Origin: Octopus vulgaris
Lineage: Eukaryota
Direction of reading: 5' to 3'
Length of the DNA stretch: 64,000 bases
Assembly (NCBI GenBank): GCA_951406725.2
Contig: OX597829.1
Coordinates: 1,984,001-2,048,000, forward strand
The notes beneath the pieces were generated by a model, which saw only the letters and a program-made list of their open reading frames with translations, was not told where the DNA came from and ran no database searches. This document shows, in pieces, positions 452 through 9,526 of this stretch (position 1 is its first letter; the number at the start of each line of letters is the position of its first letter). A program made the position numbers and the translations under genes.

Positions 452-970
452 CACAAAGGTAGAAAAGAAAGAACACAACGAACGGAAACCATCGAAACAC
501 AACATGCGGGGAAATGGACGATAGTACGACGAACAGTAAACAGGACAAAAAGAAAATACACGGATCATTCGCAACCGATTGCCTCTTCAGTCGAAGTTCG
601 GAATGTCTTTGTAGTTTGGCCTCCTTATCTCCGATGCTACTCGAATCGAGCGGGGCCATGGATTTAAGCTAAAATTATTAAGCCTCTGGGAAAGGCAAAC
701 GAATGTATACAAGAACGAAAATAAAAACGAGAAAGCTAGAATTATACACTTATGACAGAACGCCTTTCGGCTATGCAGAAGAAGGGGAAAAAAATTTTGT
801 ATATACGAATACAAATAAGTAAATAAGAGAAAGGGTCCTTTGACTATTGGACGAACGTAAAATAAAAATATACATATACAATGGACAAGCACCTTTCGGC
901 TATACAACAAAAGGGAAATAATTGTACAAATACAACAAAAATAAACCCAAAAATGTCTTTGGACTATCAC
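452..970 (-). mobile_element. Penelope-like terminal-repeat remnant carrying a permuted hammerhead
   Basis: Non-coding island between microsatellites with a hammerhead core at 581-640. It shares architecture with 9395-9583. The Penelope assignment is inferred from the known association of Penelope-like elements with hammerheads. Confidence 0.5.
581..640 (-). ncRNA. Non-circularly permuted hammerhead ribozyme motif, copy A (core mutated)
   Basis: Minus strand reads GUAG-CA-UCGGAG..GCC-AAA-CUAC..CUUCGA-CUGAAGA-GGC. Stem III is GUAG/CUAC and stem I is UCGGAG/CUUCGA. U16.1 is changed to C and G12 is lost or mutated. Confidence 0.65.
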
Positions 971-985
971 TTATATATATATAGA

Positions 986-1316
986 TTCTTTTACTTGTTT
1001 CAGTCTGCGGCCATGTTGGAGCACCGCCTTTAGTCGAAGAAATCGACGTCTGGACTTATTCTTTTTAAGCCTAGTACTAATTCTATCGGTGTCTTTTGGC
1101 GAACCGCTAGGTTATGGGGACGTAAACATACAAAACCTCAGTTGTCAAGCGATGGTGGGGGACAAACACAGACACACAAACGTATACATACATATAGATA
1201 TATATGACGGGCTTCTTTCAGTTTCTGTCTGCCGAGACTATAACAGAAGACACTTGTCCAAGGTGCCGCGCAATGAGAGTGATTCCGGAAGCAAGCCTCC
1301 TACGACATAGCCACGC
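986..1316 (-). mobile_element. tRNA-derived SINE family A, internally deleted
   Basis: Matches the other family A copies (tail ctccagcatggccgcag..gactgaaacaagtaaaag in reverse). Confidence 0.85.
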
Positions 1317-1508
1317 TTATATATATATATATGTGTGTGTGTGTGTGTGTGTGTGTGTGTCTGTGTGTGTCTGTGTGTGTGTGTGTGTGTGTATGTGTGT
1401 GTGTCTGTGCAATGAAAAATACACATTGTGTACAGGATACCACCAACGAGTGAAAAATACGTAAACATACGAGAGAAACGTACAGGACAAATTACCAAAG
1501 GAAGATAA

Positions 1509-1569
1509 CTCCTCATCAGTTGTCGACTGTTTACTACTCCTATTTCATGCTTTTAACGACAATATAGGA
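1509..1569 (-). ncRNA. Non-circularly permuted hammerhead ribozyme motif, copy B
   Basis: Minus strand reads UCCUA-UA-UUGUCG..GAAA-UAGGA..CGACAA-CUGAUGA-G. Stem III and the 6-bp stem I pair perfectly and the core is intact; stem II is about 1 bp. Confidence 0.75.
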
Positions 1570-1596
1570 AACTTCATATAAATATATATGGCTAAA

Positions 1597-2104
1597 TAGA
1601 TAGATAGATAGATAGATAGATAGATAGATAGATAGATAGATAGATAGATAGATAGATAGATAGATAGATAGATAGATATGTTTCTTTATTAGCCACACAG
1701 GGCTGCACACAGACAGAACAAATTACAAGGTAGAGCTTTTCTTTTGGGGGTAAAAAAAAGGGGGTTGGTTTTCGATCAAAAGGGATCGTAAAAGAAAAGA
1801 AAGAGGACAAAAAAAGGGGGGAGAGTGAAAAAAAGAAAAGGGGAGAGGAAAAAAAAAAGTTGATCAATAGGGATCATAATCACAGAAATGTCAATATGAA
1901 GTGTAAAGGGGAGGACAGGTGAGGTTTACCCGTGGAAAGAAAAGCCTACGGAAAAGACCGCGGTAACCTCGGTCAATGAAGTAGATAGATAGATAGATAG
2001 ATAGATAGACAGACAGACAGACAGACAGGCAGGCAGGCAGGCAGGCAGACAGACAGACAGACAGACAGACAGACAGACAGACAGACAGACAGACAGACAG
2101 ATAG
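1597..2104. repeat. (GATA)n/(GACA)n microsatellite interrupted by a LINE tail
   Basis: Direct reading. Confidence 0.95.
1678..1981 (-). mobile_element. 3' end of a non-LTR retrotransposon, inserted in (GATA)n
   Basis: Minus strand ends ..ccttgtaatttgttctgtctgtgtgcagccctgtgtggctaataaagaaacat with an AATAAA signal; tail resembles SINE family B. Confidence 0.6.
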
Positions 2105-2213
2105 TGCTTGCTTGCTGATTGCTACGTCGTGAAACTTGAGTTATGAGAAAGGCATTCAGTTACGATAATGACTATATATGTGTAAACATACGCGTATACT
2201 GCCTCCCACTTAC

Positions 2214-2545
2214 ATGTATGTATGTATGTATGTATGTATGTATGTATGTATGTATGTATGTATGTATGTATGTATGTATGTATGTATGTATGTATGTATG
2301 TGTGTATGTATGTGTGTTATGTATGTATGTATGTATGTATGTATGTATGTGTGTATGTATGTATGTGTGTATGTATGTGTGTGTGTATGTATGTATGTAT
2401 ATATGTAAGTATGTATGTATGTATGCATGTGTGTATGTATGTATGTATGTGTGTATGTATGTATGTATGTATGTATGTATGTATGTATGTATGTGTGTAT
2501 GTATGTACGTATGTATGCATGTACGTATGTATGTATGTATATTTA
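2214..2545. repeat. (TATG)n microsatellite
   Basis: Direct reading. Confidence 0.97.
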
Positions 2546-6610: not shown

Positions 6611-7002
6611 GAAATAAGTCTTCAACTTTCTTTTTCTTCTGAGCAATTCTGGAAGCGAAAGCTGATTGGGTCATTTTATCTAAACAGGAACGCAAGGTTT
6701 CCACGTTGTTCATAAGTTAATGTTTCGCGTTTCTGAAATCTTGTTTACATTTTTTCATTCCCTACCAAGACAGGAATATAACAACATGGCAGTCGACACT
6801 CAAGATCTTTAGTGAAACACAACTTTATCGTTGTACGTGATGAGATCCCGGCAGCAAAGTCGATACAACATATGTTGAACGGAGTCCTACACACAAGGGA
6901 CAATAGAAGGACGGGCAGAAACGAACGTTGTACAGAATAAAGTTTGATACCAAATCCATTTTCTCGTCCCTCAGTTATGTTTGTGCGTATATTTATATAT
7001 AT

Positions 7003-7390
7003 AAAATTAAATAAGGGTAGAAATTGGTATTAATCAATTAAAACCAGTGGCCTAACATATTTTTTAAAAATCCGAAGATTAAAAATTTTTTTACATACAA
7101 AATTAACAGGACTGACCACTAAAAGTGGACAGCCTGTATGCTAGATATAGACGTCAAAATCGGCATTTTCCACGAAGAATATGTTCTCAAGAAAAAATTC
7201 AGCAAAAAACCAAAGTGTAAAAATAAGTAAGACGAATGAAAATATACGAAATAAAAAACGATTACCTATGTACTAATTAGTTTCACTTGTTAATATTTAC
7301 GTATATTTTTTTTACATACAAAATTTAGAGGACTGACCACTAAAAGTGGACAGCCTGTATACTAGATATAGATGTCAAAATCGCCATTTG
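7003..7390 (-). mobile_element. Penelope-like remnant with an ~85-bp direct repeat and a half hammerhead
   Basis: Direct repeat at 7085-7170 and 7305-7390; minus-strand GAAA-cuaauuag-UA (palindromic stem III) at 7271-7284. Confidence 0.5.
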
Positions 7391-7721
7391 GAGCATAGCC
7401 AGTCATATGACTTAAACAAATAAAAGACTAAAAGATTATATACATACACATGCATACATACGTACATAAACACATACGTATAGCAATATACATCCAAAAT
7501 ATATAGGCCCATACATCCAACTATATATGGACACTTTTGTGGGCTTCAGTAAACGAGCTGCAACAATGCTGGGTACCACCTTCATGCATTTTACCAATAT
7601 CACGGATTCCAGAACATATATAATGGGTTTGATGCATGTGTCAATTCTGATAAACGAAAAAGTATACTATAGATGATAATGGTAATCAATATAATTTTTT
7701 GTTGCAGATTATGAACGAATA

Positions 7722-8126
7722 GGCGTAGGAGTAGCAGTGTGGTAAGTAGCTTGTTTACCAACCACATGGTTCCAGGTTCAGTCCCACTGCGTGGCAACTT
7801 GGGCAAGTGTCTTCTACTATAGCCTCGGGCCGACCAAAGCCTTGTGAGTGGATTTGGTAGACGGAAACTGAAAGAAGCCCGTCGTATATATGTATATATA
7901 TATATATATGTATGTATGTTTGTTTGTTTGTGTTTGTCTTCCAACATCGCTAGACAACCGATGCTGGTGTGTTTACGACCCCGTAACTTAGCGGATTGGC
8001 AAAAAGAGACCGATAGAATAAGTAACAGGCTTACAAAGAATAAGTCCTGGGGTCTATTTGCACGACTAAAGGCGGTGCTCCAGCATGGCCACAGTCAAAT
8101 GACTGAAACAAGTAAAAAGTAAAAGA
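7722..8126 (+). mobile_element. tRNA-derived SINE family A, full length
   Basis: Pol III A/B-box-like head, ttgggcaagtgtcttctactatagcc central domain, internal microsatellite, (gtaaaa)n tail. Confidence 0.92.
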
Positions 8127-8213
8127 ATATACACAGAAATAAGTACAAGCTCTCATATGTATTATATATAAACACATACACATCCACACACACATTCTTT
8201 CATTCATCCTTCC

Positions 8214-8665
8214 TTACATACACACATACATACATACATACATACATACATACATACATACATACATACATACATACATACATACATATATACATACATA
8301 CATACATACATACATATATACATACAAACATACATACATACATACATGCATACATACATACATACATACATACATACATACATACATACATACATACATA
8401 CATACATACATACATACATACATACATACATACATACATGCATACATACATACATACATACATACAGGCATAAATACATACATACATACATACATACATA
8501 CACACACACATACATACATACATACATACATACATATATACATACATGCATACATACATACATACATACATACAGGCATAAATACATACATTCATACATA
8601 CATACATACACACACACATACATGCATACATACATACATACATACATACATACATACATACATAT
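8214..8665. repeat. (TACA)n microsatellite with an ~108-bp internal duplication
   Basis: Variant aggcataaat recurs at about 8466 and 8574. Confidence 0.93.
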
Positions 8666-9461
8666 ATACTCAGAAACATGAGGGTGTAGATTTGAGCGTA
8701 CGTCTATATGTCTGTTGGAGGGGTATTGCACACACGTGCACACACACATGCACACACGTGCACACACACACACACACACACACACACACACACACACACA
8801 CGCGCACACACACACACACACACACATGTATGTCCAGAATGATAAAGAGAACGTGGACTGAATAAAATGACAAAAAAACAGTCATGAGCAAGCCCCCCAT
8901 TTAATCAGGTAACGTTCGTTCTAGAACCATTACGATTTCGGCGCTTATTCATGTATGTTTAGAGGGAGGACAATTGGAAAAGTTACAAAGCGTCAGATAG
9001 ATTACTTTACAATTCTTATTCCAGCACTCTGTACACTGGGTTCAAATCTCACCAATGGCAACATTGCCTTCTGACTTTTAGGAATTGGAAAATAGAGATT
9101 CATTATTTCCCCTAATTCTTTTTTCAAGTTTGTCTCTTTCCTTCTGGAAAAAATCGGCTGTGGTCAGGGTGGTCTGTCACATATTACACACATATGTGCA
9201 TGTGTGTATGTATACATGCACATATATTTAGAAATATATATGATCAACCAGATTGCCCTGAGGCAGGTGTTATTCTGCGTCGTCAAGATTTCTGTCATGC
9301 ATCAACTGAATAGCAACGCTCCCTGAAAACTATACTACTTAAACACACACACACACACACACACACACACACATACGTATATATATATATAAAATGCAAA
9401 ATGGACAAGAAAGCAAAACATCCAAATAGACGAGGCAAAAAACACGGACGGGTCATTCGAA

Positions 9462-9526
9462 GCCTTTAATCTTCAGTCAAGAACCGGATCATCCTCGCAA
9501 TTTCGGCTGATTAATCTTGAGATTGC
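9462..9526 (-). ncRNA. Non-circularly permuted hammerhead ribozyme motif, copy C
   Basis: Minus strand reads GCAA-UC-UCAAGA..GCC-GAAA-UUGC..UCUUGA-CUGAAGA. Stems III and I pair perfectly, core intact, AUC cleavage triplet; stem II unclear. Confidence 0.75.

What the first reader, a model, noticed from the sequence alone, without database searches (positions are those of the whole stretch)
581..9526. Three covarying hammerhead ribozymes with a scrambled, non-circularly permuted strand order
Seen: three divergent minus-strand loci (581-640, 1509-1569, 9462-9526) share the order [stem III'-NH-stem I] / [GAAA-stem III] / [stem I'-CUGANGA]. Stem III is GUAG/CUAC, UCCUA/UAGGA and GCAA/UUGC. Stem I is UCGGAG/CUUCGA, UUGUCG/CGACAA and UCAAGA/UCUUGA. 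Sequences differ while pairing is kept, and spacing is nearly fixed (16-17 nt from cleavage site to GAAA; 23-24 nt from GAAA to CUGA). Known: hammerhead types I, II and III are circular permutations of cleavage strand, CUGA strand, GAAA strand. Here the last two are swapped, which forces a pseudoknotted or dimeric fold, and stem II is only about 1-3 bp. Inference: these are self-cleaving ends of several Penelope-like or retrozyme families. I recall that natural non-circular hammerhead permutations have been reported, so the class may not be new, but these families may be unannotated.
Basis: partly seen in the sequence, partly recalled or inferred. Interest (0 to 1): 0.88.

Follow-up and report, generated by a model that had tools for sequence, protein, structure and literature searches.

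The report
Split-core hammerhead ribozyme of Naiad retroelements
These three stretches are worn copies of a likely self-cutting "hammerhead" RNA whose parts are wired in a knotted order that my searches did not find in print; it occurs in tens of thousands of copies in this animal genome and at the tails of Naiad jumping genes that were reported to lack hammerheads, but cutting is untested.

Summary
Confirmed and extended. The three loci are 5'-truncated 3' ends of Penelope-like repeats inserted at (TA)n. The core order cut site / GAAA / CUGANGA is the known non-circular type SGC (Eckert 2023), reported there only from metatranscriptomes. The genome has 34,245 core-pattern matches against 3,597 in the control. 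Stem II is not 1-3 bp. The strand before GAAA pairs over 5-6 bp with an upstream strand (13 of 20 clusters; 2 of 354 cross-family swaps). The strand after A9 likely closes a separate helix stacked on a hairpin. So the core is predicted to be opened between A9 and G10.1, which the six-permutation scheme excludes. Read by eye, 6 of 31 published Naiad 3' ends (cnidarians, acanthocephalan, octopus) show this fold and 5 (nematodes, spider) show type CSG, which likely explains why Naiads were said to lack hammerheads. No cleavage was tested. A pile-up of 5' ends at the cut is strong in one family, not significant in a second and absent in a third. Window copies A and B are likely dead. This scan reached the same reading earlier on other DNA.

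The parts
9392..9583 (-). Family C element: 5'-truncated 3' end of a likely non-autonomous Penelope-like repeat, between (TA)n tracts; the most intact of the three copies
9544..9580 (-). C: hairpin P0, ending just before the stem II 5' strand (two substitutions against the family)
9538..9542 (-). C: upstream stem II 5' strand GGCUG (G10.1 first)
9530..9537 (-). C: 5' strand of the helix joining stems I and II (pairs with about 9483-9490)
9515..9528 (-). C: GA of a predicted kink-turn, stem III 5' strand GCAA, UC cleavage site (predicted cut 3' of 9521), stem I 5' strand UCAAGA
9497..9509 (-). C: stem II 3' strand CAGCC, GAAA, stem III 3' strand UUGC
9483..9496 (-). C: 3-nt bulge plus GA (predicted kink-turn) and 3' strand of the joining helix
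9470..9482 (-). C: stem I 3' strand UCUUGA and CUGAAGA
9454..9469 (-). C: 3' strand of closing helix X; most of its 5' partner is lost by truncation in this copy
1411..1581 (-). Family B element; core intact (predicted cut 3' of 1563; GAAA 1546-1543; CUGAUGA 1519-1513) but truncated about 17 nt upstream of the cut, so stem II 5' strand, P0 and the X partner are missing; likely inactive
454..969 (-). Family A element, a longer copy of a roughly 1-kb unit without an ORF that occurs elsewhere as partial tandems
579..699 (-). A: whole ribozyme domain (X 5' strand 699-695, P0 690-657, stem II 5' strand 656-652, site 635, mutated GAAA 618-615, CUGAAGA 590-584, X 3' strand 583-579); two core bases mutated, likely inactive

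Best explanation
The loci are retrotransposed 3' ends of likely Naiad-related Penelope-like elements, and their RNA is predicted to fold as a monomeric, pseudoknotted hammerhead ribozyme whose core is opened between A9 and G10.1. Strand order, 5' to 3': helix X 5' strand, hairpin P0, stem II 5' strand (G10.1), joining helix, stem III, UH cut site, stem I, 2-5 nt linker, stem II 3' strand, GAAA, stem III', joining helix', stem I', CUGANGA, helix X 3' strand. Shown by sequence comparison: core conservation, covariation of stems I, II and III, repeat anatomy, and identity of one family (D) with the published octopus Naiad tail. Inferred: X and P0 stack coaxially and bridge A9 to G10.1 as a four-way junction; the joining helix docks stems I and II; a kink-turn bends stem III back to it in many families; cleavage follows normal hammerhead chemistry (G12 base, G8 2'-OH acid; recalled). 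Inferred role: cutting tandem or read-through transcripts into unit templates for target-primed reverse transcription at (TA)n. Families A, B and C are likely non-autonomous passengers of Naiad proteins.
For: Core pattern: 34,245 genome matches vs 3,597 reversed control; by eye 28 of the first 30 places are family members. Upstream stem II of at least 5 WC pairs in 13 of 20 clusters chosen on stems I and III only, vs 2 of 354 cross-family swaps; 8 different 5-mer pairs; canonical partner of at least 3 WC pairs in 1 of 20. On 15 aligned copies chosen for an intact stem II, all 5 pairs change on both sides, 90.7% paired, covariation 0.96 vs at most 0.29 when slid; the canonical register gives 48.3% and 0.24, like its slid controls. 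Joining helix 10 of 13 vs 55 of 154; helix X 11 of 13 vs 50 of 150. Tandem GA with 3-nt bulge in 12 of 20 clusters. Fixed 3' end at (TA)n, ragged 5' ends, partial tandems. A motif from the published Naiad_Obim tail has 236 exact copies, control 0, in the same fold; one copy has a degraded RT C-terminus about 1 kb upstream with no endonuclease after it (weak, E 0.8). Same fold by eye in Naiad_Obim, Ovul, 3_Chem, 2_Movir, Amil, Plae; type CSG in 2_Nbra, 3_Nbra, Hcon, Hpol, Smim. Family C 5' ends: 28 of 90 fall from 15 nt downstream to 4 nt upstream of the cut, 9.3 times background.
Against: No cleavage assay or structure. The 5'-end pile-up is 2.3-fold and not significant in B (5 of 23, p 0.12) and absent in D (1 of 30); the window was chosen after seeing C, and 6 more C ends lie 5-12 nt upstream of the cut, which cleavage cannot explain. 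7 of 20 clusters lack a perfect upstream stem II: B needs a bulged A and one A subfamily has a mismatch. 7 of 20 can form a canonical stem II of at least 3 pairs if G-U is allowed. Controls for X and the joining helix are only about twofold above chance. Nested folding is not better than shuffles (z 0.35, -0.97, -0.94, 1.03). 19 of 31 Naiad 3' ends read did not parse, including 3 of the 7 'half-core' ends seen; only the last 420-560 nt were visible. No RT remnant was linked to A, B or C within 1.5 kb, and a Naiad 5' motif had no exact match. Clusters are related, so counts are not independent events.
Confidence: 0.8

Rival explanations
1. An ordinary type-SGC hammerhead, with a short stem II formed by the strand right after CUGANGA; the upstream pairing is an alternative or inhibitory fold.
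For: Core order equals SGC. With G-U pairs and a 1-nt insert, 7 of 20 clusters can form at least 3 canonical pairs; a base between positions 9 and 10.1 is common in Penelope hammerheads (PMC4209133).
Against: The largest family (C) forms 0 canonical pairs; canonical register 48% paired vs 91% for the upstream register. Published Naiad tails from three phyla show the upstream partner with helix X occupying the strand after A9.
Confidence: 0.07
2. The motif works as a dimer or across tandem repeats, like the minimal type I hammerheads of other Penelope-like elements.
For: Partial tandems occur; Penelope minimal hammerheads act as dimers (PMC4209133 passages).
Against: Stem III is a 4-6 bp non-palindromic helix and every helix can be completed within one copy. 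The dimer-type motif in this genome sits on a different element, the young Neptune family.
Confidence: 0.05
3. A structured but non-catalytic cis element (RT or endonuclease docking site, or RT stall) that keeps a vestigial hammerhead core.
For: No activity data; 5' ends could cluster because RT stalls at a pseudoknot; some Naiads lack the motif in the ends read.
Against: CUGANGA, GAAA, U16.1 and non-G at position 17 stay fixed while all stems change. In the genome sample these bases were also selection criteria, but they hold unselected in the family majorities and in 11 Naiad consensi from five phyla.
Confidence: 0.08

Closest known systems
Type-SGC hammerhead (HRIMA-1 and variants), Eckert et al. 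2023, PMC10085705 (read: parts 2-5 of 8 and term passages; supplements not read)
   Same: Order cut site, GAAA, CUGANGA; pseudoknotted stems; short linker from stem I to stem II; a helix joining the far ends of stems I and II.
   Different: There stem II follows CUGANGA directly, and the paper assumes no more than 1-2 inserted bases there. Here the stem II strand lies upstream and two helices are inserted. The paper says no such RNAs were found in genomes of known organisms apart from one bacterial GCS candidate.
Type-CSG hammerhead, same paper
   Same: Same circular strand order. The nematode and spider Naiad tails read as CSG with all four helices.
   Different: Two metagenomic sequences in the paper. 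The window form is that circle opened inside block C rather than between blocks.
Naiad Penelope-like elements, Craig et al. 2021, PMC8557442 (read: passages, section 6, supplement metadata and 31 of 54 consensus 3' ends)
   Same: (TA)n targets, 5' truncation, partial tandems; family D matches the Naiad_Obim and Naiad_Ovul tails.
   Different: Described as lacking canonical hammerheads, with unexplained 'core' and 'half-core' notes. Families A, B and C show no ORF.
Minimal type I hammerheads of Penelope-like elements and non-LTR retrozymes (PMC4209133 passages; bioRxiv 10.64898/2026.07.22.740005 passages)
   Same: Hammerhead in the terminal repeat of a Penelope-like or non-autonomous element; many divergent families per genome; conserved G10.1-C11.1.
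   Different: Circular type I order with a palindromic stem III acting as a dimer; here non-circular and complete as a monomer.
Pseudoknot-containing hammerhead, Zhan et al. 2024, PMC11300833 (passages)
   Same: Compact pseudoknotted hammerhead with a normal core.
   Different: Pistol-like connectivity; the passages seen mention no permutation and no junction inserted after A9.

Membership tests
Hammerhead ribozyme | CUGANGA, GAAA and UH with H not G | tested here: met
   Copies B and C, and family majorities of A, B, C; window copy A is mutated
Hammerhead ribozyme | Stems I, II and III flank the core and covary | tested here: met
   stem II uses an upstream strand
Hammerhead ribozyme | Site-specific self-cleavage | not testable with these tools
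   Only indirect and mixed 5'-end evidence
Hammerhead types I, II, III | Circular order S-C-G without pseudoknot in the core | tested here: not met
   Order is S-G-C; no type III hit in the window
Type-SGC hammerhead | Order S, G, C | tested here: met
Type-SGC hammerhead | Block C intact: stem II strand within 1-2 nt after CUGANGA | tested here: not met
   1 of 20 clusters with at least 3 WC pairs; 48% paired
Type-SGC hammerhead | Helix joining stems I and II | tested here: met
   10 of 13 vs 55 of 154 in swaps; a modest margin
Penelope-like element | Fixed 3' end, 5' truncation, partial tandem or inverted copies | tested here: met
Naiad clade | (TA)n insertion preference | tested here: met
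Naiad clade | N-terminal GIY-YIG, CxC and DKA motifs, C-terminal RT | tested here: inconclusive
   Only a degraded RT C-terminus upstream of one family D copy; no ORF for A, B, C; D tied to Naiad by DNA match to the published consensus
Neptune clade | Motif carried by elements with DKG RT and C-terminal GIY-YIG | tested here: not met
   8 regions around Neptune ORFs gave no credible S-G-C motif (one loose hit); they carry a minimal type I motif instead
Non-LTR retrozyme | Tandem units with type I hammerhead, circular RNA | tested here: inconclusive
   Non-coding partial tandems yes; type I no; circles not testable
Kink-turn | Tandem G-A/A-G pairs next to a 3-nt bulge between two helices | tested here: met
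   12 of 20 clusters, including A, C and D types; not B; sequence signature only

The most novel reading that the evidence does not exclude
A seventh hammerhead wiring, outside the six-permutation scheme: the core is split at A9/G10.1 and entered through a four-way junction. It is an active ribozyme present in about 30,000 copies in one animal genome and may be an ancient Naiad form (cnidarians, acanthocephalan, cephalopods, perhaps ctenophores), with type CSG in nematode and spider Naiads. A whole retroelement clade said to lack hammerheads would then run on non-circularly permuted ones.
Probability: 0.72. Interest if true: 0.88.

Novelty: new variant of a known kind. Interest (0 to 1): 0.82.

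Why it matters
It would move non-circular RNA permutations from unassigned metatranscriptome contigs into animal genomes, at very high copy number and with a known host element. It would overturn the assumption that CUGANGA and stem II cannot be separated. It would explain the reported lack of hammerheads in Naiads and make the role of ribozymes in Penelope-like transposition testable. A core position that tolerates two helices is also a new handle for ribozyme engineering, and current search descriptors would need extending.

Tried and rejected
Rfam scan: nothing relevant among the 150 matches shown of 480. A first window pattern with too short a gap missed the loci. Neptune as parent: an RT fragment beside one B copy (L035) led to a young Neptune family, but those elements lack the motif and Neptune-like hits were not linked to the motif in other loci; Pfam gave no hit on the fragment. 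Twelve 10-kb genome stretches without Neptune ORFs held no S-G-C hit. A Naiad 5' motif had no exact match, so no whole Naiad was recovered. Nested folding was uninformative for a multi-pseudoknot. RNA data: no RNA holder listed on record; four runs guessed to be RNA were laid, but they are contigs and cannot show ends, strand or level. Seven of nine literature searches (the other two, 50 and 75, were for neighbouring topics) found no report of SGC, CSG or split-core hammerheads in animal genomes or Naiads. The library lacks most subscription papers. The supplements of PMC10085705 (alignments S6-S8) were not read, and those of the bioRxiv preprint were not available; both could bear on novelty.
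Full report
Observation. The three minus-strand motifs are present as described. A strict scan finds B (cut after 1563) and C (cut after 9521) and nothing in 60 shuffled windows; a relaxed scan adds A (cut after 635), with shuffle mean 0.08. 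Copy A has lost G12 and U16.1, but the majority of 30 family copies has both, with a perfect stem I.

What the loci are. The window lies in a 2.8-Gb genome, likely an octopus (inferred). Each locus belongs to a dispersed family: 2322, 1069 and 378 first-look candidates for C, B and A, 40 scored each. Copies share a fixed 3' end at (TA)n, have ragged 5' ends, and form partial tandems and inverted pairs; the roughly 1-kb A unit has no ORF. This is Penelope-like anatomy as described in PMC8557442 (section 6). A pattern for CGAAA, 22-26 nt, CUGANGA matches 34,245 times against 3,597 for the reversed control. By eye 28 of the first 30 places belong to such families; one is a SINE look-alike and one is unclear.

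Which parent. An RT fragment beside one B copy led to a young Neptune family. Eight regions around its ORFs gave no credible S-G-C motif; the element has its own minimal type I motif. Craig et al. report that Naiads target (TA)n and lack canonical hammerheads, and flag eight 'half-core' families. The published Naiad_Obim and Naiad_Ovul tails read in the same S-G-C order. A 19-nt piece of that tail has 236 exact copies here, control 0 (family D). One D copy has a degraded RT C-terminus upstream on the same strand with no endonuclease behind it (weak match). The sequence that follows family A's 3' end resembles the start of the Naiad_Obim consensus. No ORF was linked to A, B or C, so their tie to Naiads rests on shared fold, target and junction.

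The fold. The order S-G-C is type SGC of Eckert et al., who validated it in vitro, found it only in metatranscriptomes, and assumed that CUGANGA and its stem II strand cannot be separated by more than two bases. These families break that assumption. From 142 unique cores selected on stems I and III only, 128 not cut by a microsatellite fell into 20 clusters. The five bases before GAAA pair with a strand 19-29 nt upstream of the cut over at least 5 Watson-Crick pairs in 13 of 20 clusters, against 2 of 354 cross-family swaps, with 8 different 5-mer pairs. The strand after CUGANGA gives at least 3 such pairs in 1 of 20, or 7 of 20 with G-U (an earlier, smaller set gave 9 of 15 against 6 of 200). 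In an alignment of 15 copies (14 picked one per cluster for an intact stem II, plus window copy C), every pair changes on both sides and the first pair is G10.1-C11.1 in 12. The canonical register is no better than its slid controls. Next to stem II lies a helix to the strand before stem I' (10 of 13 against 55 of 154). A hairpin P0 ends at G10.1, and the strand after A9 pairs with the strand just before P0 (helix X, 11 of 13 against 50 of 150). A kink-turn signature lies between stem III and the joining helix in 12 of 20 clusters, not in B (the lead came from earlier scan notes). The 7 clusters without a perfect stem II include B, which needs a bulged A, and single decayed or truncated copies. 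Nested folding was not better than shuffles.

Other animals. I read by eye the last 420-560 nt of 31 of the 54 Naiad consensi; each record's identity is taken from the order of the metadata sheet. Six show the split form: Obim, Ovul, 3_Chem, 2_Movir, Amil and Plae; Amil and Plae have no unpaired base at the X/P0/stem II junction. Bfor fits apart from a 2-bp stem I. Five show unsplit type CSG with four helices: 2_Nbra, 3_Nbra, Hcon, Hpol and Smim. Nineteen did not parse. Four of the seven 'half-core' ends seen are explained. CSG, SGC and the split form are the same circle of strands opened at different points.

How it likely works. Inferred: the RNA folds as a monomer; X stacked on P0 bridges A9 to G10.1; the joining helix and kink-turn dock stems I and II; the cut falls 3' of the UH by standard hammerhead chemistry (recalled). 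A one-base insertion at this position is common in Penelope hammerheads (PMC4209133), so the backbone there tolerates change. The cut would trim tandem or read-through transcripts into templates for reverse transcription primed at (TA)n about 110-180 nt downstream. The indirect test is mixed. In copies sampled only by sequence downstream of the cut, 28 of 90 C copies begin from 15 nt downstream to 4 nt upstream of it (9.3 times background; window chosen after seeing the data), 5 of 23 in B (not significant) and 1 of 30 in D. RT stalling at the knot could give the same pattern. RNA data were uninformative.

Window copies. A has two core mutations. B lacks the upstream strand. C keeps the core, stem II and P0 but has lost most of the X partner. 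None is the best test substrate.

Novelty. Hammerheads, non-circular permutations and ribozymes in Penelope-like elements are known. Searches found no report of these permutations in animal genomes or Naiads, nor of a core opened at A9/G10.1. Perreault 2011 (PMC3088659, passages) lists other core insertions and Zhan 2024 (passages) another pseudoknot form; Lunse 2017 was seen only as a reference. Unread supplements of PMC10085705 may bear on this. The scan itself holds 20 earlier findings with these words in at least 3 genomes; the 8 shown give the same reading. They are unchecked notes, not independent support. Verdict: a new variant of a known kind, well supported by comparison, untested at the bench; interest 0.82.

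Noticed in passing
L122:2881-2925 and 7152-7196; L094, L121-L127: A young, intact Neptune-type Penelope-like family (open frame of at least 1180 aa in L094, 775 aa in most copies; over 100 near-identical matches) carries a minimal type I hammerhead with a CCGAAGA core and a palindromic stem III in both terminal repeats.
   Followed up: partly
PMC8557442 supplement File S5: Naiad tails without a hammerhead in view (oyster, ark clam, two hemichordates, two Clytia families) share another conserved motif (CGGGUG ... GCUYAC ... CACCUG); a candidate second ribozyme or structured RNA.
   Followed up: no
L002 = G000:C18:83845357-83848577: The window's C locus is almost identically duplicated with its flanks on another contig.
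   Followed up: no
window 15498-59568 and about 1000-1320: At least ten copies of a tRNA-like SINE (antisense copies can mimic the core pattern), and a second abundant SINE-like repeat between loci A and B.
   Followed up: no
L177, L178, L229, L246, L216, L231: One lineage can form both the upstream stem II and a G-U-rich canonical stem II, a possible intermediate or switch between SGC and the split form.
   Followed up: partly
L035:1357-1470: A truncated Neptune RT abuts an inverted family B copy, which suggests template switching or nested insertion between the two kinds of element.
   Followed up: no
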